A stretch of 64,000 nucleotides of DNA, from the sequence record OR885871, one strand, 5' to 3'. Positions 4,673 through 50,998 of this stretch are shown piece after piece. The number at the start of each line of letters is the position of its first letter. Position 1 is the first letter of the stretch. The notes beneath the pieces are model-generated. The model was not told the DNA's origin. It made no database searches and was given only the letters and a program-made list of their open reading frames with translations. The DNA comes from Escherichia phage vB_EcoM_JN03. Position numbers and translations under genes: made by a program.

Positions 4673-7438
4673 ATGACCAGAAATGTAGAAGAATTATTCG
4701 GCGGCGTAATCACAGCTCCTCACCAGATTCCTTTCACGTATAAATCAAATGTCGGTGGAGAAACTTTCCTTTCTTTGCCGTTCCATCCCGTCACTGGTGT
4801 TATCACAATCAACGGTGGTATGCAAGTTCCGTTAGACAACTTTGAAATCGAAGGAAATACGTTGAATCTCGGGCGCGCATTGTCCAAAGGCGATGTTGTG
4901 TATTGCTTATTCGATAAAATTCTTTCGCCAGAAGATACAGCCAAAGGTATCCGCATATACAAATTTCAGGCCGTGGGAGGTGAAACCGAGTTCACTCCTG
5001 ATTTCACATCCTATGGTGTCCAATCTCTTTATATCGGTGGCGAGTACAAAACACCCGAAATTGAATATTCCTATAACAGCACGACAGGGAAAGTGTCTTT
5101 GCAAACTGCACTGACTGCAGGCGTTTGGGTAGTCGCTGAAATGTCTGTTAAACAACCGAATATCAGTCCGGCGTTTGACCGAAGTATTCAAGAAATCGCC
5201 CGTTCTGCTAATGTAAAAGACTCTGAAGTCATCGTTAGTACGGACACCATATCTTTGTTGGATGGGAAGAAAGTTGTTTATGATATAGCGACGCAAACCA
5301 GTTATGGTTTACCAACCATTCCTGATGGTTCTGTCATTTCTTCTGTATCTGCTGGGAAATTGAATTACAACCCAGGTGATGTGCAGGTTGATTTGTTGCC
5401 TTTAGAAGATTCATTTATTAATGTGATAAACACTCTGGGGCGCAATGATGGTGCCAAGTATATTGGAGAATGCCATTCTGTTGCTGATCTCAGGAATACT
5501 GAACCCACTATGGATGGACAACGCATTATTCTTAAGCAACACACTGCGGGTACTCTTCTTGGCGGAGGGGTATTCCGTGCGTTAATTGATGGTACAGGAA
5601 AGACTGATAATAACGGTACTGTGATCAAAACTGTTGGCGGCGCGGCATGGTTACGTGTTAATGCTGATAGAGTTAACCCATTCATGTTTGGTGCTTTGGG
5701 TGGTTCTAATGATGATACTATTCCAGTACAATCTTGTGTGGATAGTGGTAAGGCCACACAATTAACTGATGCACATTACGTTAGCAATATCCAGTTAAAA
5801 TATAATACGTCGTCTATTTATGGGTCTGGATTACATTACTCAAGGTTGCATCAGTTGCCTTCTGCTACTGGGAATTGTATTACCATAAAAGATACATGCT
5901 CCCTTATTGTATTAGACGCCTTTGGGGTATATGGCACAGGTGCACAACAAGGCATGCCATTTACTGCGGGCACAACAGGTATCTATGTAGAAACTCCTTC
6001 AGGTCTCTCAGCCGATTATCCGTTCCACACTACCGCAGACCCAAGACGCGACTTGTGTATTTCTAAGGTCCATATAGCAGGTTTTGATGAATATGGGTTA
6101 AATATTGATAGTGGTAACTTTAGTGTTACTACAGATTCTCTTTTAGTCAACCACATCAATCAGGTGGGTGTCCGTTGTGCTACTACTGATTGGACTTGGA
6201 CAAATATCCAGGTTAATACCTGCGGTAAACAATGTCTGGTTCTTGATGGTTGTGGTAATGGTCGTATTATTGGCGGTAAATTCATTTGGGCTAACTGGCA
6301 ACCTTATGGTACAGTAGGACAGTTCCCAGGCATTACTATTAATAACAGCCAGAATATGGTTATTAATGGTATTGAGGTACAAGATTGTGGCGGGAATGGC
6401 ATTGAGATTAGCGATTCATATTCAATTTCCATGAACGGATTGAACACCAATCGTAACGGCATCAATGCTAACAACACTTTCTACAACATCGTATTTAACA
6501 AAAGCGATGCAGTTATCAACGGATTCGTAGGACTCAATTATGCCGCGAATAGTGGTTCAGGTGCTAACTCTAGTGCAGGCAATTTTCAGTTCCTGTCTAA
6601 TGATTGTAGTGTCACCATTAATGGTGTGGTTGAGACTGGTTATATGGGCATTAACTTTATTGGTGATAACAATATTATCAACCCCACCAATTCCGACCTG
6701 AGCATTAACGGATTGGTTAATTATTCCAAGACTGGTTTGCAAACCATGAACGAGACCCCTACATTTGATGGTGTTAGCACTACACCTGTTTATGTAAGTG
6801 TCCCATCTTCTGTAGGGCAAGTAAATGGTCTGAGACTATCACAAGCCAACAAAGATAAATTACTGTATTCAAGAACAGCAGGTCCAGAAGGTATTACCAT
6901 GGCTGCTGTTGTAGTACCCACCATATCTGGAGCTGAAGTATTTAACTTCATGGCCATTGGTTCAGGGTTTAGTGATACATCCAACAGTCTTCATCTTCAA
7001 TTAGTTATAGACGCTTCTGGAAAACAAACAATTGCTTTGCTATTGGGGGGCGATGGTACAACCCAAATTTTATCTGGGGATTTACCTAACGACCTTAAAC
7101 TACAAAGTGGTGTACCATATCATATAGCTATTGGTGCTAAACCTGGATATTTCTGGTGGAGTATTCTTAATATTCAGACGGGTAAGAGAATCAGACGGTC
7201 ATTCCGAGGCGCTTATTTAGCCGTACCATTTAATTCTATATTCGGATTAACTTCTTCATTAACATTCTTCTCGGATAGCAATGCTGGTGGGGATGCTTGT
7301 TCTGGGGTTGGTGCTAAAGTGTATGTTGGTATGTTCTCTTCTGAGAACGATTATGTAGCTTCACGATACTACAACCTGATTAATCCTGTAGACCCTACTA
7401 AGTTAATTAGTTACCGTATATTGGATTCTTCTATTTAA
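4673..7438 (+). CDS. Tailspike / receptor-binding protein TSP-C (~921 aa) with long N-terminal extension
   Basis: Start moved to the ATG at 4673 because the ORF-track ATG at 4658 lies inside the conserved hairpin. The conserved module is internal (IQEIARSANVKDSEVI ... from ~aa 175), preceded by an N-terminal domain like the upstream part of TSP-A. Confidence 0.7.
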   Translation: MTRNVEELFGGVITAPHQIPFTYKSNVGGETFLSLPFHPVTGVITINGGMQVPLDNFEIEGNTLNLGRALSKGDVVYCLFDKILSPEDTAKGIRIYKFQAVGGETEFTPDFTSYGVQSLYIGGEYKTPEIEYSYNSTTGKVSLQTALTAGVWVVAEMSVKQPNISPAFDRSIQEIARSANVKDSEVIVSTDTISLLDGKKVVYDIATQTSYGLPTIPDGSVISSVSAGKLNYNPGDVQVDLLPLEDSFINVINTLGRNDGAKYIGECHSVADLRNTEPTMDGQRIILKQHTAGTLLGGGVFRALIDGTGKTDNNGTVIKTVGGAAWLRVNADRVNPFMFGALGGSNDDTIPVQSCVDSGKATQLTDAHYVSNIQLKYNTSSIYGSGLHYSRLHQLPSATGNCITIKDTCSLIVLDAFGVYGTGAQQGMPFTAGTTGIYVETPSGLSADYPFHTTADPRRDLCISKVHIAGFDEYGLNIDSGNFSVTTDSLLVNHINQVGVRCATTDWTWTNIQVNTCGKQCLVLDGCGNGRIIGGKFIWANWQPYGTVGQFPGITINNSQNMVINGIEVQDCGGNGIEISDSYSISMNGLNTNRNGINANNTFYNIVFNKSDAVINGFVGLNYAANSGSGANSSAGNFQFLSNDCSVTINGVVETGYMGINFIGDNNIINPTNSDLSINGLVNYSKTGLQTMNETPTFDGVSTTPVYVSVPSSVGQVNGLRLSQANKDKLLYSRTAGPEGITMAAVVVPTISGAEVFNFMAIGSGFSDTSNSLHLQLVIDASGKQTIALLLGGDGTTQILSGDLPNDLKLQSGVPYHIAIGAKPGYFWWSILNIQTGKRIRRSFRGAYLAVPFNSIFGLTSSLTFFSDSNAGGDACSGVGAKVYVGMFSSENDYVASRYYNLINPVDPTKLISYRILDSSI

Positions 7439-7444
7439 AAATAT

Positions 7445-7468
7445 ACCCCTCTTCGGAGGGGTCTTTAC
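7445..7468 (+). terminator. Rho-independent terminator (acccctcttcggaggggt + U-tract)
   Basis: Perfect hairpin right after the TSP-C stop. Confidence 0.6.
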
Positions 7469-7489
7469 TAGAAAAACAATGAGGTACTT

Positions 7490-9535
7490 ATGAACGAAAT
7501 GTTTAGTCAAGGTGGTAAAGGTTCGACTGGAATCTTAACCAATAAACAAGCAGTAGCCAGACACTTTGGTGTTAAACAATCTGAGGTTGTTTATGCCAAA
7601 TCAGGACAGTCCTTGTCTGGTTATAAAGTGATCTACGATAAGGTATCTCAACGTGCCTACGCTCTCCCTTCTAACATTGGTGCTGTAACGGTCACCAGTT
7701 TGGTCGACGGCATCCTCACGCACTCTGGAGGCACCGTAGATTTGGGTGCATTGGCTGTGTTAAGGGAAGAGTATGTTACTCTTGTTGAAAATTTTACTTC
7801 TGGATTTACGATTCGTGTCAAGAACGAAGTCGTGAGCGATGGGGTGAGTCTATATCGTTGGGATGGTGCTTTACCTAAAACCGTTGCACCTGGCTCAACA
7901 CCTGAAACAACTGGTGGAGTTGGTTTAGGTGCATGGTTGAGTGTTGGTGTTGCCACATTAAGAAGTGAATTAACATTGAATGTTTCAGATATTAATGGAT
8001 TGATTAACGTTAATACAAGAAACAAAAATTTCATGTATGTTACATCATCGTTTCGAGGGGGTGGAGGTGCTGGTGTATATGTATGGAATCCCACAAAAAA
8101 TAAATCATTACATAACGGAGCGACTATCATAGACCCATCAAGGACTCTACCGATAAACTGGGATTCTCAGTCGCAAATAGATGATTGGTTTACAATTTCA
8201 TCCACAGATGGGGTGGGATGTTTTGAATTAATTGAGGGGGAGAGCTCGGTTAATCCATTGCAGTGGGGCTGCTTGGGCGATTCATCAAAAGACAACCCAC
8301 ATAGTGGGTATGATAACTCTTTAATATCTGATTATGTTGATGACTACGCTGAATCAGTAAATAAAACAGTATTTTGGCCTCACGGTATATTTAGATTCAC
8401 TGGCCCACAGCAAAGAAAGACAAGGCATGATGGACATGAATACATTAGAATGAATAGTGAGTTTTCTACTGTTTTTATTATTGATAATCAGACGCCAATA
8501 ACTTTTCTAAAAGGAAAAGGGATTGGGACCGACCATCAGAAACTGTATGCCCACGGTTCAAGAGGAATAGAATATATTGGCAACCCTAAACGAATCCATA
8601 CTCTTCTTGATGCATACATGTACACGACATCATGGGAGCATTTTGCTGTTCGTGGATTTAAATATGGATTTGATATAAATTTTGTTTCTTTCCATATTCA
8701 GAATTTCTATTTTACTGATAATGAAATTGGAATTTACCCAAAACCACTAATGCCGCCATTGCAAGCTGCCGCACCAAGTACAATGCTATCATTATCTTAC
8801 GGTGCATTTGATTTCAGTAAGAATGGAATAGTATTCACTGAGAGATTTGGGCTTGGCGAGGCAGAAAACGTCATAAACGTAAATCTATCTTCTGTTGTGT
8901 TCGAACAAAATGAATTTGACGGATTCAGTTGTGCTAACTATCCATTACCTGTCGGTGTGAAAAATGCCAACAACAGGGTTATGAACCTTACAGTAAATAA
9001 TTGCTGGGCTGAACTTAACGGTAGAGCTGGTTTCAATTTCGAGAACGCTGACGTAACTGCGAATTCATTGAGAATAAATGAAGCGGATGAATTGATTTAT
9101 CCAGCAGGGGCAAGGACATACTCTATTGATGTAAATGGTGTAAGGGAAACAAACGTACTAAAATCGTCACTTTATGGAGCGCATAATATAGAAGCTCCGG
9201 TATCTGGTCAAATGATAATAAAACCAGATGGTAGCATTTATTCTGGTGCGACAATGCCTTTTACTGTTACAAAGACATCGGAAGGTCAATTTAAATTAAC
9301 GAATGCATCATCTACTCAGGGGTTTCAATACGTATCAATAGAGGTTATGCCATTCGATAGAGCAAGGATTGATACTGTTGTGACATGTGACCCATCAGAT
9401 GTCGCAGCGTTCGTTCAGTTTGGTACAATATCAAGCTATAAGATTGAATTTACATCGAGAGGCACATCTACATTTGTAACTCCAGAGGCTGGTTTCGCAG
9501 TTAAATTCTCATGGGTTCACCCTCTTAATAATTAA
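7490..9535 (+). CDS. Tailspike / receptor-binding protein TSP-D (681 aa)
   Basis: RBS gagg 7 nt upstream. N-terminal conserved module present (GVKQSEVVYA, SGYKVIYDKVSQRAY, GTVDLGALAVLREEYVTL, RVKNEVV, YRWDG, GSTPETTGGVGLGAWLSVG); divergent C-terminus. Confidence 0.75.
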   Translation: MNEMFSQGGKGSTGILTNKQAVARHFGVKQSEVVYAKSGQSLSGYKVIYDKVSQRAYALPSNIGAVTVTSLVDGILTHSGGTVDLGALAVLREEYVTLVENFTSGFTIRVKNEVVSDGVSLYRWDGALPKTVAPGSTPETTGGVGLGAWLSVGVATLRSELTLNVSDINGLINVNTRNKNFMYVTSSFRGGGGAGVYVWNPTKNKSLHNGATIIDPSRTLPINWDSQSQIDDWFTISSTDGVGCFELIEGESSVNPLQWGCLGDSSKDNPHSGYDNSLISDYVDDYAESVNKTVFWPHGIFRFTGPQQRKTRHDGHEYIRMNSEFSTVFIIDNQTPITFLKGKGIGTDHQKLYAHGSRGIEYIGNPKRIHTLLDAYMYTTSWEHFAVRGFKYGFDINFVSFHIQNFYFTDNEIGIYPKPLMPPLQAAAPSTMLSLSYGAFDFSKNGIVFTERFGLGEAENVINVNLSSVVFEQNEFDGFSCANYPLPVGVKNANNRVMNLTVNNCWAELNGRAGFNFENADVTANSLRINEADELIYPAGARTYSIDVNGVRETNVLKSSLYGAHNIEAPVSGQMIIKPDGSIYSGATMPFTVTKTSEGQFKLTNASSTQGFQYVSIEVMPFDRARIDTVVTCDPSDVAAFVQFGTISSYKIEFTSRGTSTFVTPEAGFAVKFSWVHPLNN

Positions 9536-9540
9536 TATAA

Positions 9541-9568
9541 AAACCCCGCTAATGCGGGGTTTTATTTC
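9541..9568 (+). terminator. Rho-independent terminator (aaaccccgctaatgcggggttt + U-tract)
   Basis: Hairpin plus T-run directly after the TSP-D stop. Confidence 0.7.
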
Positions 9569-9589
9569 TATCTGTTTGTTGGCTGTATA

Positions 9590-9597
9590 CTAAATAT
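9590..9597 (+). promoter_or_regulatory. Late-promoter-like box CTAAATAT
   Basis: About 33 nt upstream of the ATG at 9630. Confidence 0.4.
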
Positions 9598-9629
9598 CTC
9601 TATAAAATGGCACTCGATGGAGCATCAAA

Positions 9630-12600
9630 ATGCAATCTACAAATTTAAACCGTCGCCCGTATTGGGATGACTGGAATCCTGGGAAACGTTTTTCACGGAT
9701 TCTTTTTCGTCCGATGCCTATCAAGGTTCAGACTCGCGAACTGAACCAGATGCAGACTATTCTTCAGGATCAAATTGAAAAACTGGGCAACCATTTGTTC
9801 AAAGATGGTTCTATGGTTATCCCTGGCGGTCTGACGATCACTAACGCCGCAGTCTCTTTGAAATTCACTTTGGCGGGTGGTACTGAATTCACCGATCTGG
9901 AAGGTATTTCTGAACTCTACGTTTTGGGGAAGGACAATAATGCCAAAGCGCGTGTGTTGTCTCTTGAACGTGATCTGTCTGCTCCTGATACGATGCTGGC
10001 TATCCTTGAGATGACTGAAGCGGGTAATGCTGACGGATTCCATGTTAACGATAATCTGTATTTCCAGACTTACGACGTGAATGATAATTTCATTCGTATT
10101 GGTTATGGTATCGCAGCTGCGGTGACTGGTTCTATCGTCGCTCGTATGACGAAAGGCGTTTACTTCATTCGTGGGATGTTCCTAGACGTTGATGACGCAA
10201 CTCTTATCGTTGATAAAACTTCGAACACGTCTTCCCACCGCATCGGATTTAAAGTCACCGAAACCATTGTCACTGAAACAGAAGATGAATCCCTTTATTC
10301 AAATGCTCAGGGAACGATTAACTCCAAAGCCCCAGGCGCTCATCGTCTTCGAATAGATCTGGTCTTATCTCGATTTGATTATGATGCTGTGGTTGAAGAC
10401 TTTGTTGAACTGGCCAAAGTTCGTGATGGTAAAATCCAGTCTATGGTGACTCAGTCTACCTATAATATTCTGGAAGACACGTTAGCCCAACGGACTTATG
10501 AAACCAACGGCGATTATAACGTTTCAACGCACCAGATCGACATCCGCGAACACCTGAAAGTCAATAACAATGGTGGTGTATTCAATGCTGCTGATGGCGG
10601 TGACGAGAGCAAATTTGTTTCTGTGATGAAACCAGGTATTTCCTATGTTCGCGGTCGACGTATCGAAAATGTCGGGGAAGAACTGGTTATTGTCGACAAG
10701 GCGCGGGATACCGATGTCCTGAATAACACCCCTGTTGCGGTGGCCACAGGCAATTATCTGGTCACTAAGAATTCTAAAGGTGTGCCAGTGATATCCCGCA
10801 CCGTTCGATACAAATTACTGAATGCTTCAGGCGTTACCCAGGCTACAGCACTTTGTATATCAGCTGAACGTAATTCAACAGAATTTCGTCTGTATATGCG
10901 CGACCTGGTCGTTACTGGCGATGCATCCACTATCACCAAAGTGTCTTACGAAGAAAGCGGTATCACCATGTTCTCTGCTGAACTGGAATCCAATCAGTTT
11001 AACCAGAGTTCTATGATAGATCTGATCTTCTCTCTTCCGGTATTCGGTGTCAAGACTTTAGCACCAACTGGCTCCGTGGATATCAACTACACTGTTCTCA
11101 GAACGTATAAAGTGACGTTGGACAACAGCGGCGCGGGTTCTATTTCTGCTCCATTGGGATATAGTTTTTCCCCAGAATTTTCGTTGTACTCTGCAGCGAA
11201 ATCTGATGGTTCTGAAGCGCAGTTCGATATCTCTGGTTCTTTGTCTTTGACTGGTTCTCCGGTCGGTTCGGCGCTGCAGATTTCTCTGGGTAGTGGTAAT
11301 GCTAACCAGTCAATCAATTTGCTGGCGCTGATGATTCGTACCACGGCCACAATCAAAACGAAGACCATCACTGAAACAACTGAAACAGTGACGTTCACCT
11401 CGCAGACTAGCCGTCCTTTGGCGAATCACGATGGTTGGAAATTGGTATCGGTCAAAAACGATACTGGCGCAGACGTGACCTCCAGCTTCGTCCTAGATGG
11501 CGGACAGCGTGATGCAGGGTATTACAAGTCTAACTTGTTATCCAGCGCTGGAGCAATCTCAGGGACGTATACAGTGGTGTATCAATACTTCGCCCACAGT
11601 TCCGGTGATTTCTTCTCTGCTGATTCGTATACTTCGATGGATTATAAAGATATCCCGAATTATACATCTTCTACATCAGGCGCGGTGTACGGCCTGGCAG
11701 ATAGTTTGGATTTCCGTCCGAAAATCACCAACGGAACTTCTGACACAGATATGGTTCGTCCAAACACTGCAGTTATTCTGGACACAGAATATTATCTGCC
11801 GCGTATTGACGCGATTTATCTGGCAGACAACGGTGTGTTTGGTGTGGCTCGAGGCATTAGTTCTAACAACCTGGCTTCTCCAGCAATCCCAGCGAACGCC
11901 ATGCGTTTGTATGAATTGTTGATCCCACCGTATACGCCGAATATTGATGATATACAAATTCGCACTATTGACAATCGTCGTTATACGATGCGCGATATCG
12001 GTAAACTGGAAACCCGTATTTCCAATGTTGAATACTATACCTCTCTGTCACAGCTGGAATCTTCGGCGATGACACAGCAAGTGTTCGACCCCATCACGGG
12101 TAATCCCCGTTTCAAAAATGGTATTGCGGCTGATCCGTTCAAAGACTTCCGGTTGATTGATGACTTGTCTGAAGATTGGATGGGTTCTATCGATACCGAA
12201 AACGGACGTCTGCGCCCGTTTGTACAACAAAACGTTGTTGACATGACTCCTGTTGGCTGGAACAAAGTGATGGATGGGATGGTGGTTTGCAATTACACGC
12301 CTGAAATCTCAGTGAACCAAGAATATGCGACGACGACGATCAACGTTAACCCGTACGCAGTATTCAATTGGGAAGGTTTCTTGAAGATTAACCCGACCAC
12401 AGACTACTGGTTCGAAAACTATTATGTTGCACCGCGTATTATCAATGAAACGATCAACACCCGTGGTACTGTACAAGAAGGTTCAGTGTACGGAACATGG
12501 CGTACTGTTTCTGTTTCTGATCGTGTTTGGGAACCGCATGGTGCTGGTGGTGTGTGGTGGGGATATCGTTACCGCACGACTGTTTCTGCCCGTGATGTCA

Positions 12601-14468
12601 CCACATATACATACACGGACAAAACAACCACGACCATGACTGGTGAACAGATTGTGGAGACGCAAGTTATCCCATACATGCGCGAGATCGATATTTCTTT
12701 CGACGCATCTGGGCTGCGACCTTTCACTCGTATGTATGCGTTTTTCTCTGGTCGTGACGTTAATCTGTATTGCAAACCGAATGGTGGTAATTTCGGAGAC
12801 CCAATCACCACTGATGCCAATGGTGCTGTTAAAGGTGTATTCCGCGTTCCACAGAACGATACAATCAAGTTCAACACAGGCGACAACGTGTTCCGCTTAA
12901 CGGATAGCCCTGTTGACAGTAAATCTGCGGATGATACACTGACCAATGCAGAAATTGTTCATAAATCTTTCGGTAAGAAACAAGGTATTCAAAAGACCTT
13001 TGTCAACACTCGTGTCCTTGGTTACACTGCCAGTACTCGCACCGAAACCAGCACTTCTGAAGTTGTGGTCGACCAATGGCGTGATCCGATTGCCCAATCG
13101 TTTATGGTGGCGACTAAGAATGGCGGCGAGTATATCGAAGGCGTGGAAGTATTCTTCTCTACCAAGTCACGTGATGTTCCGATCACTCTGGAAATTCGCG
13201 AGATGGAGAATGGCTTACCTTCTCACACAGTCATTACTCGTAAGACTTTGAACCCATCTGAAGTGACGATCTCTACAGACTCTTCCGGCGGTACGAAGTT
13301 CACCTTTGATTATCCGGTGTATCTGCAAGCATCTACTGAGTTTGCTATCGTTTTGTTGGCGAATACTCAGGATTACAACGCGTATATCGCGGAAATGGGC
13401 AAGAAAAACCTTCTGTCCAACGAATATATCGCCAAACAACCGTATACGGGGGTGTTCTTCACTTCTTCAAACGGTTCAACTTGGTCTCCGAACCAAATGG
13501 CCGATATGAAATTCCGCATATATCGTTGCAACTTTGCGGCTGGTCAGAACGTTGTAACATTTGATCCGAAGCTCGGGCCAAAACAACGTCCGTTGGGATT
13601 GAACACTCTGAACTGCGTAAGCGGGTCTTCTGTTGTGACTGTGTTTGCACCTGGTCATGGTTTGGTTGCTGGGAACAATGTCACTCTTTCTGAATTGACA
13701 GGCGGTTGTGGCTTTACTCCTGAACAACTTAACAAAACGTTTACTGTGACAGATGCGAGCTATACTTCATTCAAGATTGACGTCGGTACGGCAGCAGACA
13801 GCAATGGGCAAATCGGTGGAGATAATGCTTCTTTCTTGGGCAATTATCTGGTTGATATGTTCTATGCCAGCGTTACCAATTCGGCTCTGGAAGGTTCAAT
13901 TCTGAAATTGGAATACCGTTATCGCGATGCCACTTCAAATTCTATGTCTGATTGGGCTGAGTTTGAAACTGACACTGACGTGGCGTTACCGACTGAAGGT
14001 ATCTATCGTCAGGTTGGTGACTTCCAGATTCGTGCTACTATGACTCGTAGTGAAAACAACGTGTACACAGCACCGATGATTGATGGTGATGACCTGAGCG
14101 TGATCTTCAACTCTTATGGCGTAGATCCTTTTGAAGACGTTTTCAAATATGTCACAAAGGACATTGGTTTCGATAACCCATGTTCGACTGTGAAACTGTT
14201 CTTCGGGGCGATGCTGCCTTCTCAGTCTTCGATGAAGATGCAGGTGAAACTTCTACGAGCAGGGCAAGAGATGGATAGTGTGGCTTGGGAAGACGTCGCC
14301 CCAACTTCGCCTTTGGTTAACGACGGTTCCACATTCTTTGAATATGAGTATGACAAGACTGTGGCAAGCAACAATCCGTTCGTTGGATTAAAAGTCAGAG
14401 CACTTGTAAGGGGGAACCGAGTTGCTCCTCCTTCGTTCAAAGACTTCCGTCTTATTGCTCTGGCATAA
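9630..14468 (+). CDS. Large (1612 aa) putative virion structural protein, tail/baseplate-associated
   Basis: Long uninterrupted ORF between the tailspike cluster and the neck genes, preceded by a late-type box. Ser/Thr/Gly/Asn-rich composition typical of fibre or baseplate proteins. No catalytic motifs recognised; function is positional inference. Confidence 0.45.
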   Translation: MQSTNLNRRPYWDDWNPGKRFSRILFRPMPIKVQTRELNQMQTILQDQIEKLGNHLFKDGSMVIPGGLTITNAAVSLKFTLAGGTEFTDLEGISELYVLGKDNNAKARVLSLERDLSAPDTMLAILEMTEAGNADGFHVNDNLYFQTYDVNDNFIRIGYGIAAAVTGSIVARMTKGVYFIRGMFLDVDDATLIVDKTSNTSSHRIGFKVTETIVTETEDESLYSNAQGTINSKAPGAHRLRIDLVLSRFDYDAVVEDFVELAKVRDGKIQSMVTQSTYNILEDTLAQRTYETNGDYNVSTHQIDIREHLKVNNNGGVFNAADGGDESKFVSVMKPGISYVRGRRIENVGEELVIVDKARDTDVLNNTPVAVATGNYLVTKNSKGVPVISRTVRYKLLNASGVTQATALCISAERNSTEFRLYMRDLVVTGDASTITKVSYEESGITMFSAELESNQFNQSSMIDLIFSLPVFGVKTLAPTGSVDINYTVLRTYKVTLDNSGAGSISAPLGYSFSPEFSLYSAAKSDGSEAQFDISGSLSLTGSPVGSALQISLGSGNANQSINLLALMIRTTATIKTKTITETTETVTFTSQTSRPLANHDGWKLVSVKNDTGADVTSSFVLDGGQRDAGYYKSNLLSSAGAISGTYTVVYQYFAHSSGDFFSADSYTSMDYKDIPNYTSSTSGAVYGLADSLDFRPKITNGTSDTDMVRPNTAVILDTEYYLPRIDAIYLADNGVFGVARGISSNNLASPAIPANAMRLYELLIPPYTPNIDDIQIRTIDNRRYTMRDIGKLETRISNVEYYTSLSQLESSAMTQQVFDPITGNPRFKNGIAADPFKDFRLIDDLSEDWMGSIDTENGRLRPFVQQNVVDMTPVGWNKVMDGMVVCNYTPEISVNQEYATTTINVNPYAVFNWEGFLKINPTTDYWFENYYVAPRIINETINTRGTVQEGSVYGTWRTVSVSDRVWEPHGAGGVWWGYRYRTTVSARDVTTYTYTDKTTTTMTGEQIVETQVIPYMREIDISFDASGLRPFTRMYAFFSGRDVNLYCKPNGGNFGDPITTDANGAVKGVFRVPQNDTIKFNTGDNVFRLTDSPVDSKSADDTLTNAEIVHKSFGKKQGIQKTFVNTRVLGYTASTRTETSTSEVVVDQWRDPIAQSFMVATKNGGEYIEGVEVFFSTKSRDVPITLEIREMENGLPSHTVITRKTLNPSEVTISTDSSGGTKFTFDYPVYLQASTEFAIVLLANTQDYNAYIAEMGKKNLLSNEYIAKQPYTGVFFTSSNGSTWSPNQMADMKFRIYRCNFAAGQNVVTFDPKLGPKQRPLGLNTLNCVSGSSVVTVFAPGHGLVAGNNVTLSELTGGCGFTPEQLNKTFTVTDASYTSFKIDVGTAADSNGQIGGDNASFLGNYLVDMFYASVTNSALEGSILKLEYRYRDATSNSMSDWAEFETDTDVALPTEGIYRQVGDFQIRATMTRSENNVYTAPMIDGDDLSVIFNSYGVDPFEDVFKYVTKDIGFDNPCSTVKLFFGAMLPSQSSMKMQVKLLRAGQEMDSVAWEDVAPTSPLVNDGSTFFEYEYDKTVASNNPFVGLKVRALVRGNRVAPPSFKDFRLIALA

Positions 14469-46902: not shown

Positions 46903-47097
46903 ATGTCCGTAAAAATGAAAATTGATATGACCAAACCATTTTTGCGTTCAGGAGTTGACTCTCTTGACTCACAGTTTAAACCCAGCGAAGTTTTAATCCA
47001 ACAGATTGAGACTAATCGCGAATTCATAGAACACATGCTGGTGAAGCCGGAAGGTGAAGCCGTCCATACCACTAAAGAAGGTAATAACGATGATTGA
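46903..47097 (+). CDS. Small protein (64 aa) translationally coupled to the vWA protein
   Basis: Stop codon overlaps the downstream start (ATGATTGA arrangement). Confidence 0.45.
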   Translation: MSVKMKIDMTKPFLRSGVDSLDSQFKPSEVLIQQIETNREFIEHMLVKPEGEAVHTTKEGNNDD

Positions 47098-49306
47098 ATC
47101 ATTAACATTTAAGAATGCGGTTGCGACCGTCGCGCCGTCTAACCATGTAATCGTTGTGGATATCTCCGGTTCCATGTATCGTTCACTTCCAGAAGTCCGT
47201 AAGCATCTGAAGGAGAACCTGCCTTCCCTGGTGAAACCGGAAGATACTGTGAGCATCCTTTACTTTTCATCTCGCGGTGATTTCGGAACGGTATTTGCCG
47301 GACGTCAGATTAACAGTGCAACTGACCTCAGTGAGATCAATAATCTAATTGACCGTTTCCTGAAGCCTTCTGGTTGTACTGGTTTTGTTGAGCCGCTGAA
47401 ACTGGCTGCGGAAACTGCCATTAGCCTGAATAAACCTGGTTATGTTAACAACCTGGCATTCATGACCGACGGGTATGACAACTGCTGGCGTTCTAATGAA
47501 ATCCTGGATGCCGCTGAAGTACTGCCCAAAGCGTTTGATAACATTACCTTCATCGAATACGGTTGGTATTGTAATCGCGAACTGCTGGGGCTAATGGCAG
47601 AACGTTCTGGTGCGACCCACGTATTCGCCGAAGGACAGAATGAATATCAGACCGAATTGGAAAACGTGCTGAAAACTTCTTCACCGAAAGTTGTAGTCGA
47701 TGTTCCTCTGGTTTATACCCATGCCATTTATGTTGAAAATGGCGTGGCGACTGTTTTAGCTGTGCATCCTGATGAAGAGCACCCTATTGGCCACGTCAGC
47801 ATCCCTGAAAGCGTTTCTCAGCTGTGGGTTGTAAACCCCAACATGATCGACCAGCTGGATAATCTGGCAGACATCCAAGCGGCATACGTGCTGGCATTTT
47901 ACGGCGTGTATACCATGGACGCAGATTTGGTTTGGGCTGCGCTGAAGAAAACGGGAGATGTTCGTTTCATCAAACAATACAGCAACTGTTTCACCAAGCA
48001 GGACTATTCCAACATCAAAGTCGATCTGACCCAGGCTATCGTGGATGAAACTCTGCGCGGCGTAGATGGCATCGATTACAATATGGTTCCGGCTGAAGAC
48101 GCCACCACCATTGTTGATGTTCTGACGTATTTGGCTGAAGCAGATGTCTCTATCGTCACCAAGCATCCGCTATTCTCTTACAAGAGCATTGGGCGCGGTA
48201 CTATACAAAAAGTTGACGACACCGAAGACAAGTTGGCCGAAGAGATTGCGAATGCGACTTCTAAAGAAGAGCGTAAAGCCCTGGCGCTCAAACTGGCCGA
48301 GCACGAAGATTGGACGCCGGAATTCAATCCAGCAGATGATAAAGGGATTGTCCCGATCAGCAATTTGGTCTATAATTCAGAACGTCCTAACATCAGTGTG
48401 CAGACAGTTCAACACGGAACGGTTATTGTGCCTGAGTTTGTACAGAAGAAATATGAACTTCCTGAAGAGCTGGGAACCTGGCGTTATCGCAATTACACCA
48501 TTGTCAAGGATGGTATCATCAACCTGAAAACAATGCCTATCACTGCAGATTCTCCGATTGTTCGGGCTAAGGTGGCACAGGATTTGACTGCCATGGGTGT
48601 TCATGTGTTTGGTGGGCCGGAAGTCTTCATTGTAAATCTGGAAAGTGTCCCAATGGTTAACCGCGCCATGACAAAGAATATCAGTGCTGCTGAATTCTTT
48701 GCAGACAATGTGCGCCGTGAAGCATTGAAGGCAAAGCAAAAAGTTCTGAAATTCTACCGTGATGAACTGGTTGGCAAAGGCAACGCTACTGGTCTGGCTT
48801 CAAAATATGGCAAAGAAGCGGCTGATTTCCTGTCAGCAAACGGCATTCGCGACTATGGATTTTCACCGAAGACTTCTTCTGTAGAATCAACCGATGTCTA
48901 TATGAGTCGTGAATTGAATGTGAAAATCAAAGGCGCATCTTCACTGCCGAGCATCGCGTCTGTTATCAAAAAACAGACGGACGGTAAAAAACTGAATGTC
49001 GCTGATCAGCTGATCGCTAATGCCCTGGCCGAATACAATGCGTTTGTTAAATCGCCGATGATCACCAGCGTACCGGAAGAGACTCAGAAAAAGCTGATCG
49101 AAAGTTGGATTGGTGATGCAGCAAAAGCAGCTATCAACGAAGTTCGATCTCTGAACAAAACGCTGTCCAAGGTAGTTTATGGGATTGTTGCAGGCCATGG
49201 TTGGTTTACCGACCTGGATTTGGAAGAATCCACTATGGATGTGGAAGTTGATGGGGTGAAATACACTGTCACTGCCGAACTGGCTGAAAAAGAAGTCAAA
49301 ATCTAA
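47090..49306 (+). CDS. von Willebrand factor A (vWA) domain protein (~738 aa)
   Basis: MIDAS motif VVVDISGSM, conserved Thr region (SGCTGF) and FMTDGYDN, followed by ~550 aa of uncharacterised sequence. Start at the ATG with RBS aagaagg. Confidence 0.75.
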   Translation: MIESLTFKNAVATVAPSNHVIVVDISGSMYRSLPEVRKHLKENLPSLVKPEDTVSILYFSSRGDFGTVFAGRQINSATDLSEINNLIDRFLKPSGCTGFVEPLKLAAETAISLNKPGYVNNLAFMTDGYDNCWRSNEILDAAEVLPKAFDNITFIEYGWYCNRELLGLMAERSGATHVFAEGQNEYQTELENVLKTSSPKVVVDVPLVYTHAIYVENGVATVLAVHPDEEHPIGHVSIPESVSQLWVVNPNMIDQLDNLADIQAAYVLAFYGVYTMDADLVWAALKKTGDVRFIKQYSNCFTKQDYSNIKVDLTQAIVDETLRGVDGIDYNMVPAEDATTIVDVLTYLAEADVSIVTKHPLFSYKSIGRGTIQKVDDTEDKLAEEIANATSKEERKALALKLAEHEDWTPEFNPADDKGIVPISNLVYNSERPNISVQTVQHGTVIVPEFVQKKYELPEELGTWRYRNYTIVKDGIINLKTMPITADSPIVRAKVAQDLTAMGVHVFGGPEVFIVNLESVPMVNRAMTKNISAAEFFADNVRREALKAKQKVLKFYRDELVGKGNATGLASKYGKEAADFLSANGIRDYGFSPKTSSVESTDVYMSRELNVKIKGASSLPSIASVIKKQTDGKKLNVADQLIANALAEYNAFVKSPMITSVPEETQKKLIESWIGDAAKAAINEVRSLNKTLSKVVYGIVAGHGWFTDLDLEESTMDVEVDGVKYTVTAELAEKEVKI

Positions 49307-49314
49307 ATTCAACT

Positions 49315-49338
49315 GGCGGGGAAACCCGCCTTCATTTT
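49315..49338 (+). terminator. Terminator hairpin (ggcggggaaacccgcc + ttcatttt)
   Basis: Right after the vWA gene stop. Confidence 0.6.
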
Positions 49339-49349
49339 GAGATATGCTT

Positions 49350-49661
49350 ATGTCAAACAAACCAACTTATGTTGAAGTAATGCGTGTTCTGGCTCAGTAC
49401 GCTTGTGACAACCTGAACATGGAAACTTGGCGCAACGGGGATCACAAGGACAAGTTTGATAACATTGATGATAATATCGATGCTTTAGCGCCGTTACGGG
49501 TTAAGAATGATCTCGGCGGTGACGATCTTGACATGATTGAGCTGGTCATGGAAATCGAAGAAGAGTACGATGTAGAAATTAGTGACGAGTGGGTGGGTAA
49601 ACATGGAGATGATCCTACCCTCGGAGAGTTAGCTGAACTCGTCGTTGCCCTGCGCAAGTAA
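49350..49661 (+). CDS. Acyl carrier protein-like protein with Ser-to-Asp substitution at the phosphopantetheine site
   Basis: VKNDLGGDDLDMIELVMEIEEEYDVEISDE aligns with E. coli ACP [29 protein letters not shown]; the DSL serine is Asp (DDL). Confidence 0.7.
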   Translation: MSNKPTYVEVMRVLAQYACDNLNMETWRNGDHKDKFDNIDDNIDALAPLRVKNDLGGDDLDMIELVMEIEEEYDVEISDEWVGKHGDDPTLGELAELVVALRK

Positions 49662-49667
49662 CTGAAG

Positions 49668-49734
49668 ATCCCCAACGTTTGTTGGGGATTTTTACTTTTA
49701 GGGGTTTACTTCTATAAGGCAAATGCGTATTATT
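49668..49734 (+). promoter_or_regulatory. Terminator hairpin + sigma70-like early promoter cassette, copy 1
   Basis: Hairpin ccccaacgtttgttgggg, then GTTTAC - 18 nt - TATTAT; 53 bp identical to copy 2. Confidence 0.6.
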
Positions 49735-49782
49735 GAATTCATCGGGCGGGGCGTTCCCGTTCATTGAAAGAAGGTATATATT

Positions 49783-50013
49783 ATGTCTGCTGTATCACGC
49801 GTTGTTGACCTCACCCCATTTTGCCTGAACAATATTGCTAACCCTAAATTGGTATTGTTTAAAGATCCCTCTAATTTCTGCTGGCTGGCAAGTTGTGATA
49901 CCCACAACGGACGTCGTGCTGTTTGGGAGTTTCCCGCAACTGATGAAGGTAGAATTTCCGCTATAAGAAAATTAGAACTGGAAAATTCAAGCCGAGAAAT
50001 TAAACAGGCATAA
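49783..50013 (+). CDS. Hypothetical protein (76 aa)
   Basis: Sits between the two promoter cassettes. Confidence 0.45.
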   Translation: MSAVSRVVDLTPFCLNNIANPKLVLFKDPSNFCWLASCDTHNGRRAVWEFPATDEGRISAIRKLELENSSREIKQA

Positions 50014-50079
50014 CTTTTATTAAATCCCAACAAACGTTGGGGATTTTTACTTTTAGGGGTTTACTTCTATAAGGCAAAT
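50013..50079 (+). promoter_or_regulatory. Terminator hairpin + sigma70-like early promoter cassette, copy 2
   Basis: Hairpin cccaacaaacgttgggg (loop is the reverse complement of copy 1's loop), then an identical promoter. Confidence 0.6.
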
Positions 50080-50139
50080 GCGTATTATTCAATAACTGGC
50101 GAACGATGGGTTCACCAGGTTGAAAGGTAAGATTATATC

Positions 50140-50379: not shown

Positions 50380-50438
50380 TTCTATAACTTAGGGTGGGGT
50401 ATGATTACCCCGCCTATTTGAAATGCAGGAACTATACC

Positions 50439-50945
50439 ATGACCGATCAACAAATTCAAGATTTATTTTACCTCGTCCATGATAAGTCCCATATTATGCG
50501 CCCTGGCACTGTTTCTCCTGTCGTCCGTGATCTGGTGCAAGAATTACGCGAACCGCAGATGACCACACTTTATCGTGGGTTGCCTAAAGAGGACGTTGTG
50601 CGTTTAGAGATGATGTTTGAACGAGGCGACATGTTCCAGACATGGGATTCTTGTCTTAGCTTCAGTGAATTGAAGCATGTGGCCAAAAAATTTTCTAAAT
50701 CGTATGGAACCAGAGCTGTTGCTCGCATTTGTTACAAACATCGAAACGGACTCCCAGAGGGGCTTAATGTCTTTGGTTCTCTAGAAAAATTTGTGAACAA
50801 AGACGATGAATCAGAAATGGATATGCTGGACTTGGCGTCCATGGAGAAAGAATGGATATTCTGCCAGCCTCGCGTCTTCCCAGTTTCAAGAAAAATGGCA
50901 ACAGATGGGACGATGGTTTTTACCGTATCACTTATTACTCTATAA
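50439..50945 (+). CDS. Hypothetical protein (168 aa)
   Basis: Start context tatttgaaatgcaggaactataccATG, repeated before the next gene; begins MTDQ. Confidence 0.5.
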   Translation: MTDQQIQDLFYLVHDKSHIMRPGTVSPVVRDLVQELREPQMTTLYRGLPKEDVVRLEMMFERGDMFQTWDSCLSFSELKHVAKKFSKSYGTRAVARICYKHRNGLPEGLNVFGSLEKFVNKDDESEMDMLDLASMEKEWIFCQPRVFPVSRKMATDGTMVFTVSLITL

Positions 50946-50998
50946 ACCCACGGCGGGGTATCTTTGCCCCGCCTATTTGAAATGCAGGAACTAATATC

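What the first reader, a model, noticed from the sequence alone, without database searches (positions are those of the whole stretch)
49350..49661. Acyl carrier protein mimic lacking the phosphopantetheine-acceptor serine
The protein aligns residue-for-residue with the ACP helix II recognition region ([21 protein letters not shown] against DLGGDDLDMIELVMEIEEEYD), but the modified Ser is Asp. It keeps the acidic surface that ACP uses to dock with partners, yet cannot be converted to holo-ACP. It could therefore act as a decoy or competitive inhibitor of host ACP-dependent processes (fatty acid or lipid A synthesis, or other ACP partners), or as a carrier-independent scaffold. It sits in an early accessory region next to the vWA protein.
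Basis: partly seen in the sequence, partly recalled or inferred. Interest (0 to 1): 0.75.

Follow-up and report, generated by a model that had tools for sequence, protein, structure and literature searches.

The report
Phage acyl-carrier-protein look-alike without serine
A Salmonella/E. coli phage of the Vi01/CBA120 group encodes a small protein with the shape and acidic docking helix of the bacterial acyl carrier protein, but an Asp or Glu always replaces the one serine that carries the cofactor, so it cannot carry fatty acids and most likely acts by binding proteins that recognise acyl carrier protein.

Summary
ORF 49350-49661 (+) of this Kuttervirus (Ackermannviridae) window encodes a 103-aa protein. 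It passes the Pfam PP-binding threshold, matches type II fatty-acid-synthase ACPs in the PDB, and folds (AlphaFold2 pLDDT 87.5) into an ACP bundle whose 50 best PDB matches are all ACPs.

The cofactor serine is Asp59. The same position is Asp or Glu, never Ser, in every homologue found (39 cluster representatives plus relatives down to 34% identity). The aligned docking-helix residues are invariant or nearly so, and dN/dS is about 0.15. So the missing serine is a selected state of a working gene, and the database name "acyl carrier protein" is misleading.

No phosphopantetheinyl transferase or acyl-ACP enzyme is annotated in the closely related CBA120 genome.

The gene is the last in a transcription unit with a 750-aa vWA/MIDAS protein. 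It is also an allele-swap hot spot: the neighbouring gene is 98-99% identical between genomes whose ACP-like genes are 61-63% identical.

Ser-to-Asp/Glu ACP-like proteins also occur in unrelated phages and in bacterial lipoproteins.

Function is not shown. Best guess (0.4): an ACP mimic that docks on host ACP clients which accept unmodified ACP (PlsB, AcpS, MukB). Main rival: a ligand of the phage vWA protein.

Rating: new variant of a known kind, moderately interesting.

The parts
49350..49661 (+). ORF of the Ser-less ACP-like protein (103 aa; alternative ATG at 49344 gives 105 aa)
   Evidence: ORF listed. Pfam PP-binding 30.8 bits, above the gathering threshold. PHROG 4154 matched full length, E = 9e-57. 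AlphaFold2 ACP fold. Median dN/dS 0.15.
49521..49568 (+). Helix II, the ACP 'recognition helix' (residues 58-73, DDLDMIELVMEIEEEY). Codon 49524-49526 (GAT, Asp59) occupies the place of the phosphopantetheine serine.
   Evidence: Aligned column for column with [11 protein letters not shown] of B. subtilis ACP. D58, L60, D61, I63, E64, M67, E70 and E71 are invariant in 39 family representatives; position 59 is Glu in 34 and Asp in 5. Helix 59-73 in the model.
49590..49619 (+). Family-specific motif W81-x-G83...D87-D88-P89-T90 (helix III, the loop, and the N-cap of helix IV). It is absent from canonical AcpP.
   Evidence: Invariant in alignment A2. Retained as W..G..D(D/N)P(T/S) in most of the relatives at 34-50% identity.
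49419..49487 (+). Variable enlarged loop I (about residues 24-46), which carries most of the difference between alleles
   Evidence: Alignments A1 and A3. Lowest pLDDT block in the model. Lowest nucleotide identity between the window and L018.
49315..49330 (+). GC hairpin between the vWA stop codon and the ACP-like start codon. It may be a weak terminator or attenuator. No promoter-like site lies between it and the ATG.
   Evidence: -14.1 kcal/mol, z = -3.5.
49663..49700 (+). Strong intrinsic terminator that ends the vWA/ACP-like transcription unit (14-bp stem followed by a U run). It is followed by a sigma-70-like promoter, TTTACT-N17-TATTAT, at 49705-49733.
   Evidence: -19.8 kcal/mol, z = -6.25.
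47054..49306 (+). Upstream, apparently co-transcribed gene: a 750-aa protein with an N-terminal vWA domain and an intact MIDAS motif. Included as context; a functional link to the ACP-like protein is not shown.
   Evidence: Pfam VWA. D36, S38, S40 are nearly invariant and T109, D139 invariant in 45 homologues. AlphaFold2 pLDDT 86.5, with a vWA + beta-sandwich similar to 4fx5, ArnB and Sec23/24. Adjacent to the ACP-like gene in nearly all Ackermannviridae-type loci examined; the exceptions are Miltonvirus KNP4 (~880 nt apart) and contig L078 (no ACP-like ORF).

Best explanation
The gene encodes a pseudo-ACP. The protein keeps the four-helix ACP fold and the acidic helix II through which bacterial AcpP docks on its partner enzymes. 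A carboxylate (Asp here, Glu in most relatives) has permanently replaced the serine that receives 4'-phosphopantetheine, so the protein cannot carry acyl groups.

I infer that it works purely by protein-protein binding. Its AcpP-like face would dock on the basic ACP-binding patch of one or more host proteins that accept unmodified ACP. The best candidates are glycerol-3-phosphate acyltransferase PlsB, AcpS and MukB. There it would compete with, or stand in for, host AcpP and so reprogramme lipid synthesis or another ACP-dependent process during infection. The always-acidic residue at the serine position may imitate the phosphodiester charge of holo-ACP or bind a metal ion.

Shown: the fold, the AcpP-type helix II, the family-wide absence of Ser, the Asp/Glu-only state, purifying selection, the lack of annotated phage carrier-protein enzymes, and the operon position.

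Inferred: that it binds host ACP clients, which ones, and the effect on the host.
For: - ACP domain and fold. The best sequence matches are type II FAS ACPs rather than PCP or PKS carriers.
- The residues aligned with AcpP D35, L37, D38, E41, M44, E47 and E48 are invariant (D58, L60, D61, E64, M67, E70, E71) across 39 representatives, even though overall identity falls to about 60%.
- The serine position is Asp or Glu in all family members, including relatives at 34-50% identity and the divergent Miltonvirus and Erwinia-phage versions.
- Median dN/dS is 0.15.
- No PPTase, ketosynthase, acyltransferase or other carrier-protein enzyme is annotated anywhere in the CBA120 genome, whose ACP-like protein is 100% identical.
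- Ser-less Asp/Glu ACP-likes occur in unrelated phages with no shared phage-encoded neighbour. This fits a conserved host target.
- The ORF is swapped as a cassette between genomes whose flanks are otherwise 97-100% identical, as is common for host-interaction genes.
- Literature: apo-ACP stops E. coli growth by inhibiting glycerol-3-phosphate acyltransferase (review PMC3896788). MukB binds and is activated by apo-AcpP as well as holo-AcpP (PMC8602292). D35 and D38 are needed for AcpP-IscS docking (PMC13343975).
- The protein is made: one spectrum each for the ACP-like and vWA proteins in Sajous1 proteomics (PMC10892097).
Against: - No binding or phenotype data exist.
- Helix II conservation could be inherited or serve the fold rather than reflect selection for host docking.
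- The family has invariant features that AcpP lacks (W81, G83, DDPT, a long helix I and an enlarged loop). These suggest a dedicated partner that need not be an ACP client.
- Host AcpP is very abundant (about 0.25% of soluble protein, PMC3896788), so a competitor would need high expression or higher affinity.
- Several ACP partners need the prosthetic group: SpoT (PMC3896788) and IscS, where S36T loses binding (PMC13343975). These are poor candidates unless the carboxylate mimics it.
- The strict position downstream of the vWA/MIDAS gene favours a phage-internal partner.
- Expression timing is unknown.
Confidence: 0.4

Rival explanations
1. Phage-internal partner. The ACP-like protein is an accessory subunit or ligand of the 750-aa vWA protein encoded just upstream. 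The exposed Asp/Glu at the tip of helix II would complete the metal coordination of the vWA MIDAS site, as acidic ligand residues do for integrin-type vWA domains.
For: - The two genes are adjacent and in the same orientation, separated only by a small hairpin, and share the strong terminator after the ACP-like gene.
- The adjacency holds in all Kuttervirus, Limestonevirus and Taipeivirus-type loci, in metagenomic relatives down to 34% identity, and in Erwinia phage Bue1.
- The MIDAS motif DxSxS...T...D is conserved in 45 vWA homologues.
- The residue at the serine site is always a carboxylate.
- Both proteins were detected in Sajous1 proteomics.
Against: - vWA homologues at 25-65% identity in T4-like phages (CfP1, Thanatos-2), Bacillus phage AR9, a 274-kb phage contig and an Aeromonas-associated contig have no ACP-like ORF nearby.
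- tblastn found the vWA protein in 504 phage records but the ACP-like protein in only 270.
- In Miltonvirus KNP4 the two genes are about 880 nt apart.
- Essentially identical vWA proteins (98-99%) are paired with ACP-like alleles only 61-63% identical, so there is no sign of co-evolution.
- Gene order is conserved across the family in general, so adjacency may simply be inherited.
Confidence: 0.25
2. A role in DNA or nucleotide metabolism. It could be an acidic DNA mimic, or a scaffold or chaperone for DNA replication or modification enzymes, and have nothing to do with ACP clients.
For: - Net charge -16, pI 4.2.
- The gene lies within the replication/recombination block: clamp and clamp loader, MazG-like pyrophosphatase, helicase, RNase H, SbcCD-like nuclease.
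- Other Ser-less ACP-likes sit next to dUTPase-like, RNR, ThyA, ThyX, dCMP deaminase, MazG or Mu-Gam-like genes.
- One (L053) lies inside a cluster of 5-hmdU DNA kinase, FkbM methyltransferase, radical-SAM/SPASM enzyme, glycosyltransferase and ThyA-like enzyme.
Against: - E. coli AcpP is just as acidic (net -15), so the charge is simply the ACP character.
- In Kuttervirus no nucleotide-modification gene is adjacent. The immediate neighbours are proteins of unknown function and an Alt-like ADP-ribosyltransferase.
- The neighbours of the different Ser-less ACP-likes share no family.
- Small accessory genes of large phages commonly lie among replication genes.
Confidence: 0.15
3. A genuine carrier protein that is loaded in a non-canonical way. 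Examples would be a substrate attached to the Asp/Glu carboxylate, as with the C-terminal Glu of the LysW amino-group carrier (own knowledge), or phosphopantetheine attached to another residue.
For: - The site is never a neutral residue, only Asp or Glu. That would suit a chemically used carboxylate.
- T90 (Thr/Ser in all relatives) is a conserved hydroxyl.
Against: - No ligase, ATP-grasp enzyme, PPTase or acyl-transfer enzyme is annotated in the phage.
- T90 corresponds to the ordinary helix IV N-cap Thr of AcpP.
- I know of no precedent for carboxylate loading on an ACP fold.
Confidence: 0.05
4. An ordinary acyl carrier protein, as annotated in GenBank/RefSeq and PHROGs, with the Asp being an error or strain peculiarity.
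For: The gene is annotated 'acyl carrier protein' in many phage records and in PHROG 4154.
Against: - Ser is absent in every homologue.
- Two base changes separate Asp from any Ser codon.
- Scores against the NCBIfam AcpP models are 37-40 bits against cut-offs of 66-106.
Confidence: 0.02

Closest known systems
Bacterial type II fatty-acid-synthase acyl carrier protein (E. coli AcpP, B. subtilis AcpA; Pfam PF00550, TIGR00517)
   Same: - Four-helix fold (TM-score about 0.75).
- Acidic helix II, with the equivalents of D35, L37, D38, E41, M44, E47 and E48 conserved.
- Similar net charge.
   Different: - Asp or Glu replaces Ser36, so there is no phosphopantetheine site.
- It is 26 residues longer, with a longer helix I and an enlarged, variable loop I.
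- It has a W-x-G...DDPT motif before helix IV.
- It scores at about half the NCBIfam AcpP cut-offs.
- It is phage-encoded, with no carrier-protein enzymes annotated in the phage genome.
Unmodifiable or apo forms of E. coli AcpP (apo-ACP, S36 mutants)
   Same: - An ACP surface without the prosthetic group.
- Apo-ACP is a known growth inhibitor that blocks glycerol-3-phosphate acyltransferase (PMC3896788) and still binds and activates MukB (PMC8602292). This is the mechanistic precedent for a decoy.
   Different: - Those are laboratory or transient forms of the host protein. This is a naturally fixed, selected state in a virus.
- The replacement here is specifically acidic, and the protein has extra conserved surfaces.
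- Toxicity or inhibition by the phage protein has not been tested.
Plasmodium falciparum mitochondrial ACP, which has Phe in place of the serine and binds Isd11-Nfs1 without a cofactor (own knowledge: Falekun et al., eLife 2021; not checked here)
   Same: A natural ACP-fold protein that has lost the serine and works as a binding subunit rather than a carrier.
   Different: - It is eukaryotic and organellar.
- The replacement is hydrophobic, not acidic.
- Its partner is known. No homology closer than the general ACP family is implied.
Serine-containing ACPs of other phages (for example PHROG 5934, and many IMG/VR contigs)
   Same: Small phage-encoded PP-binding domain proteins with similar helix II sequences.
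   Different: - Those keep DSLD and are of canonical length (70-95 aa).
- The Ackermannviridae family is a separate clade that is entirely Asp/Glu.

Membership tests
Acyl carrier protein / PP-binding domain (Pfam PF00550) | Sequence match above the Pfam gathering threshold | tested here: met
   30.8 bits against a threshold of 20.8, E = 3.6e-7, residues 54-98.
Acyl carrier protein / PP-binding domain (Pfam PF00550) | Four-helix ACP bundle | tested here: met
   AlphaFold2 pLDDT 87.5. The 50 best Foldseek PDB matches are all ACPs, with TM-score (normalised to the target) up to 0.77.
Functional acyl carrier protein (AcpP-type carrier) | Conserved Ser of the D-S-L motif at the N-terminus of helix II, the site of 4'-phosphopantetheine attachment | tested here: not met
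   Asp59 in the window protein. The position is Asp or Glu in all 39 representatives and in the distant relatives. No other conserved Ser except residue 2.
Functional acyl carrier protein (AcpP-type carrier) | Score above the curated cut-offs of the NCBIfam AcpP equivalog models | tested here: not met
   TIGR00517 scores 37.5 bits against a cut-off of 70.45; NF002148 scores 40.5 against 71. The matches cover only residues 50-81.
Functional acyl carrier protein (AcpP-type carrier) | Presence of a PPTase and of enzymes that load or use acyl-ACP in the same genome or cluster | tested here: not met
   None is annotated in the whole CBA120 genome, whose ACP-like protein is identical. Caveat: many of its genes are annotated as hypothetical.
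Functional acyl carrier protein (AcpP-type carrier) | Conversion to holo-ACP by AcpS or Sfp | not testable with these tools
   Needs an in vitro assay or intact-mass measurement.
PHROG 4154 (Ackermannviridae 'acyl carrier protein' family) | Full-length profile match | tested here: met
   E = 9.4e-57, residues 1-103 on profile positions 1-108 of 108. tblastn matches in 270 phage records.
ACP mimic / decoy of host ACP clients (a functional class, not a homology family) | The partner-docking surface of AcpP is retained | tested here: met
   The equivalents of D35, L37, D38, E41, M44, E47 and E48 are invariant in the family.
ACP mimic / decoy of host ACP clients (a functional class, not a homology family) | Physical binding to, and inhibition of, a host ACP-dependent protein | not testable with these tools
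   No multimer prediction or experiment was available.
Ligand of a vWA/MIDAS protein | Consistent co-occurrence with the vWA gene | tested here: inconclusive
   Adjacent in nearly all Ackermannviridae-type loci examined; the exceptions are KNP4, where the genes are ~880 nt apart, and contig L078, which has no ACP-like ORF. The vWA family also occurs without any ACP-like gene in T4-like phages, AR9 and other contigs.
Known anti-phage defence components (PADLOC) | Match to a PADLOC model | tested here: not met
   No hit for either the ACP-like or the vWA protein.

The most novel reading that the evidence does not exclude
Ackermannviridae, and independently other large phages, deploy a class of "charged pseudo-ACPs". 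These are ACP-fold proteins in which the cofactor serine is replaced by Asp or Glu as a mimic of the phosphodiester of holo-ACP. They would dock on host ACP-dependent machines (PlsB, AcpS, MukBEF or lipid A enzymes) and switch them off or re-tune them. If so, they are a previously unrecognised host-takeover strategy aimed at the ACP interaction hub. The allele swapping seen here would then reflect adaptation to different hosts or counter-measures.
Probability: 0.3. Interest if true: 0.75.

Novelty: new variant of a known kind. Interest (0 to 1): 0.55.

Why it matters
ACP is one of the most connected proteins in bacteria. Its partners include fatty acid, phospholipid, lipid A, biotin and lipoate synthesis, MukBEF, SpoT and IscS. 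A viral protein that copies its docking face but cannot be loaded would be a natural probe and inhibitor of that hub, and a new type of host-takeover factor.

In practical terms, hundreds of phage genomes, including therapeutic candidates of the Vi01/CBA120 group, carry the label "acyl carrier protein" or "auxiliary metabolic gene" for a protein that cannot be a carrier. That annotation should be changed.

The rule that the serine site is always Asp or Glu also recurs in other phages and in exported bacterial lipoproteins. It suggests a wider, unstudied use of the ACP fold, and it can be tested directly with simple mutants (D59S, D59A).

Tried and rejected
1. Sequencing or strain artefact. Rejected: every homologue has Asp or Glu, and two base changes are needed from any Ser codon.
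2. A second, hidden serine acceptor. Rejected: only Ser2 is conserved.
3. The vWA neighbour as a Ku70/80-like (vWA + Ku core) DNA-end binder. The idea came from a Mu-Gam-like gene next to another Ser-less ACP-like protein. Rejected: the model matches vWA + beta-sandwich proteins (4fx5, ArnB, Sec23/24), and Ku is not among the top 50. The neighbours in L072 and L074 are also unrelated to each other.
4. A shared phage-encoded neighbour for the Ser-less ACP-likes of different phages. None found.
5. A link to the thymidine hypermodification genes in Kuttervirus, as seen in contig L053. Rejected: no such genes are annotated near the ACP-like gene in CBA120.
6. PADLOC models: no hits.
7. Literature searches for a Ser-less phage ACP, for Ackermannviridae ACP function, or for Kuttervirus transcription timing found nothing relevant. 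One search was too loosely worded and returned nothing useful.
8. Genomic context of the bacterial lipoprotein-type Asp/Glu ACP-likes was uninformative because the contigs are short.
9. The neighbour-joining tree of about 125 ACP domains is too star-like to count how many times the Ser-to-Asp/Glu change arose independently. It only shows that the Ackermannviridae family is one all-Asp/Glu clade.
No multimer prediction was possible.

Full report
**What the window is.** The region is 98-99% identical to Salmonella and E. coli phages of the genus Kuttervirus (family Ackermannviridae: SPTD1, SJ3, CBA120, Vi01 relatives). In CBA120 the same ORF is orf142, annotated "acyl carrier protein". It lies between orf143 (a vWA protein) and small hypothetical genes, inside the block that also holds the clamp, clamp loader, RegA-like repressor, MazG-like pyrophosphatase, helicase, RNase H, late sigma factor and SbcCD-like nuclease.

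**Checking the observation.**
- ORF 49350-49661 (+) encodes 103 aa. An in-frame ATG at 49344 would add two residues.
- It passes the Pfam PP-binding gathering threshold (30.8 against 20.8 bits) and matches PHROG 4154 end to end (E = 9e-57).
- Against PDB sequences the best matches are all type II fatty-acid-synthase ACPs (B. subtilis ACP, E = 5e-8; E. coli AcpP, 1.4e-5). The printed alignment puts DLGGDDLDMIELVME on [15 protein letters not shown]. Asp59 (GAT, 49524-49526) therefore sits where the phosphopantetheine serine should be.
- An AlphaFold2 model built on 39 homologues is confident (pLDDT 87.5, pTM 0.81). It has helices at 7-21, 59-73, 79-84 and 91-101, plus three short helices within an enlarged loop I.
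- Its 50 best Foldseek matches in the PDB are all ACPs, with TM-score up to 0.77 normalised to the target.

**The missing serine is a family trait.**
- In an alignment of the 38 homologues found at E <= 1e-3 plus the window protein, the Asp of the "DSL" motif (D58) is invariant. The serine position is Glu in 34 and Asp in 5, never Ser.
- A profile search of 1.8 billion representative proteins added relatives at 34-50% identity (P0039-P0049). All have Asp or Glu.
- The very divergent versions agree: Serratia phage KNP4 (Miltonvirus) has NFDELD, and Erwinia phage Bue1 has FAMDELD in an ORF that was never called.
- No Ser codon is one mutation away from Asp or Glu.
- The only other near-conserved Ser is residue 2.
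- The gene is under purifying selection: median pairwise dN/dS is 0.15 over 39 comparisons with 0.05 < dS < 1.5.
- Peptides of it and of the vWA protein were seen, at one spectrum each, in proteomics of the Vi01-like phage Sajous1 (PMC10892097).

**What is conserved.**
- Invariant positions in the family include D58, L60, D61, I63, E64, M67, E70 and E71. In the alignment with E. coli AcpP these correspond to D35, L37, D38, V40, E41, M44, E47 and E48, the recognition helix.
- D35 and D38 of AcpP were shown experimentally to be needed for docking on IscS (PMC13343975).
- Net charge (-16, pI 4.2) is like that of AcpP (-15).
- The family also has invariant features that AcpP lacks: Y7, V10, Y17 and N21 in a long helix I, and W81-x-G83...D87-D88-P89-T90 around helix III and the start of helix IV.
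- Residues 24-46 are variable.
- Scores against NCBI's AcpP equivalog models are about half the cut-offs and cover only the helix II region.
- So the protein has an ACP fold and an AcpP-type docking helix, but it fails the defining feature of a carrier.

**Genomic setting.**
- The vWA gene (47054-49306) ends 43 nt before the ACP-like ATG. The only element between them is a 6-bp GC hairpin (-14.1 kcal/mol), with no promoter-like site.
- Directly after the ACP-like stop codon comes a 14-bp-stem terminator (-19.8 kcal/mol, z = -6.25), followed by a sigma-70-like promoter.
- The two genes therefore look like the end of one transcription unit.
- Expression timing is unknown, and I found no transcriptome paper.
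- The whole CBA120 annotation contains no PPTase, ketosynthase, acyltransferase or other ACP-using enzyme, although many genes are hypothetical.

**Is the vWA protein the partner?**

For:
- The ACP-like gene lies immediately downstream of the vWA gene in all 20 Kuttervirus, Limestonevirus and Taipeivirus-type loci examined, in metagenomic relatives with ACP-like identity as low as 34-40%, and in Bue1.
- The vWA MIDAS motif (D36-x-S38-x-S40...T109...D139) is conserved in 45 homologues. MIDAS sites are completed by an acidic ligand residue (established knowledge of integrin-type vWA domains).

Against:
- The vWA family is much wider: 504 phage records against 270 for the ACP-like protein.
- T4-like phages (CfP1, Thanatos-2), Bacillus phage AR9, a 274-kb phage contig and an Aeromonas-associated contig have vWA homologues at 25-65% identity and no ACP-like ORF nearby.
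- In KNP4 the two genes are about 880 nt apart.
- The vWA model (pLDDT 86.5) resembles vWA + beta-sandwich proteins such as 4fx5, archaeal ArnB and Sec23/24. This does not reveal a function.

**Allele swapping.**
- Across loci the ACP-like protein diverges faster than its neighbour. In L018 the vWA protein is 98.4% identical to the window's, while the ACP-like protein is 60.7% identical.
- Phages SS9 and 38 show the same pattern: 99% against 63%.
- At the nucleotide level, identity between the window and L018 is 97-100% for most of the vWA gene up to about 49300. It falls to about 60% within 49350-49640 and recovers at the terminator.
- The ORF is therefore exchanged as a cassette between otherwise near-identical genomes.
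- This is typical of accessory genes that deal with the host. It also argues against tight co-evolution with the vWA protein, although the conserved surfaces are present in both allele types.

**The same trick elsewhere.**
- Most other viral ACP-like proteins recovered from IMG/VR keep DSLD. Several unrelated ones do not: L028 (DELD), L052/L059 (DDLD), L053 (DDLD), L055 (DELD) and L033 (DALD).
- Two representatives, P0081 and P0055, also sit on phage contigs.
- Their neighbours differ: a primase, dCMP deaminase, a radical-SAM/SPASM enzyme within a 5-hmdU DNA kinase cluster, a cupin/glycosyltransferase cluster, a dUTPase-like protein plus a Mu-Gam-like protein, and ThyX. No common phage-encoded partner appears.
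- A set of bacterial ACP-like proteins with lipoprotein signal peptides also has Asp or Glu at this site.
- In a neighbour-joining tree the Ackermannviridae family forms a single all-Asp/Glu clade. The other Asp/Glu forms are scattered among serine forms, but resolution is poor.
- The profile I searched with itself carries Asp/Glu at this column, so these numbers are not frequencies.

**Mechanism.**

Established:
- Apo-ACP is a potent inhibitor of E. coli growth through glycerol-3-phosphate acyltransferase (reviewed in PMC3896788).
- MukB binds and is activated by apo-AcpP as well as holo-AcpP (PMC8602292).
- AcpS by definition binds apo-ACP.
- SpoT and IscS need the modified form.

Inferred:
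- The most economical reading is that the phage protein is a fixed, unloadable ACP look-alike. It would dock through helix II on one or more host proteins that accept unmodified ACP, and compete with or replace AcpP.
- Because the replacement is never neutral, the negative charge at the serine site is probably used. It could imitate the phosphodiester of holo-ACP or bind a metal ion.
- I put this at 0.4. The vWA-ligand model gets 0.25, a role in DNA/nucleotide metabolism or as a DNA mimic 0.15, and a non-canonical carrier 0.05. The remainder is unassigned.
- Nothing here shows binding to any partner.

**Comparison with what is known, and novelty.**
- The gene family is already in the databases under the name "acyl carrier protein" (PHROG category "moron, auxiliary metabolic gene and host takeover").
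- I found no paper that notes or studies the loss of the serine.
- Ser-less ACP-fold proteins exist elsewhere. The example I know is the Plasmodium mitochondrial ACP with Phe, cited from my own knowledge and not checked here.
- Apo-ACP toxicity is classical. The concept is therefore a new variant of a known kind rather than a new category.

What is new here:
- the family-wide Asp/Glu rule;
- its recurrence in other phages and in exported bacterial proteins;
- the cassette-like allele exchange;
- the family-specific conserved surfaces.

Interest is moderate (0.55). It would rise if a host target were shown.

Noticed in passing
window 49671-49738 and 50026-50093 (flanking orf76, 49783-50013): A 68-nt direct repeat (93% identical) lies on both sides of a 76-aa ORF of unknown function (PHROG 22629). 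Each copy consists of a terminator hairpin followed by a sigma-70-like promoter (TTTACT-N17-TATTAT). In the hairpin loop region GTTTG is replaced by its reverse complement CAAAC between the two copies. The 355-bp unit is missing from L018 and from CBA120-type genomes, as if gained or lost by recombination between the repeats.
   Followed up: partly
window 50386-50434 and 50945-50993: A 49-nt repeat (86% identical) made of a GC hairpin plus CCTATTTGAAATGCAGGAACTA. It sits just upstream of the Alt-like ADP-ribosyltransferase ORF and of orf92. Similar GGCGGGG...CCCGCC hairpins precede the ACP-like gene and orf76. This may be a shared regulatory or RNA-processing element.
   Followed up: no
window 50394-50945: A 183-aa ORF matches only the C-terminal part of PHROG 832, 'RNA polymerase ADP-ribosylase' (Alt-like), E = 1e-16. 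It is strongly diverged between the window and L018.
   Followed up: no
L053 (IMGVR_UViG_3300032105_000035) 6078-12853: A Ser-less (Asp) ACP-like ORF at 7902-8195 is tightly packed between an FkbM-type methyltransferase and a radical-SAM/SPASM enzyme. The cluster also has a 5-hmdU DNA kinase, a GT61 glycosyltransferase and a ThyA-like enzyme. This looks like a thymidine hypermodification cluster that includes a pseudo-ACP.
   Followed up: partly
proteins P0089, P0113, P0114, P0134, P0137, P0138, P0164, P0165, P0173 (metagenomic bacteria; loci L083-L086): ACP-like domains that carry N-terminal lipoprotein-type signal peptides and have Asp or Glu at the serine site. These appear to be an exported, cofactor-less ACP-fold family. 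Their genomic contexts were too short to be informative.
   Followed up: partly
L079 (Erwinia phage vB_EamM-Bue1, MG973030.1) 7253-7612: An ACP-like ORF (FAMDELDYIE) lies directly after the vWA gene, but no gene is called at this position in the collection's gene list for this contig.
   Followed up: yes
window 47054-49306 and homologues (L068-L070, L077, L078): The 750-aa vWA/MIDAS protein belongs to a large family of unknown function. It is spread over Ackermannviridae, T4-like Straboviridae, Bacillus phage AR9, Rhizobium phages and jumbo-phage contigs. The predicted fold is vWA + beta-sandwich, similar to ArnB and Sec23/24, followed by a C-terminal half with no PDB match.
   Followed up: partly
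L072 (ERZ534009 NODE_31, 147 kb) 7000-8866: Another Ser-less (Asp) ACP-like protein, P0081, lies between a dUTPase-like 306-aa protein and a Mu-Gam-like protein whose start overlaps its stop codon. The phage also encodes RNR, ThyA and DHFR.
   Followed up: partly
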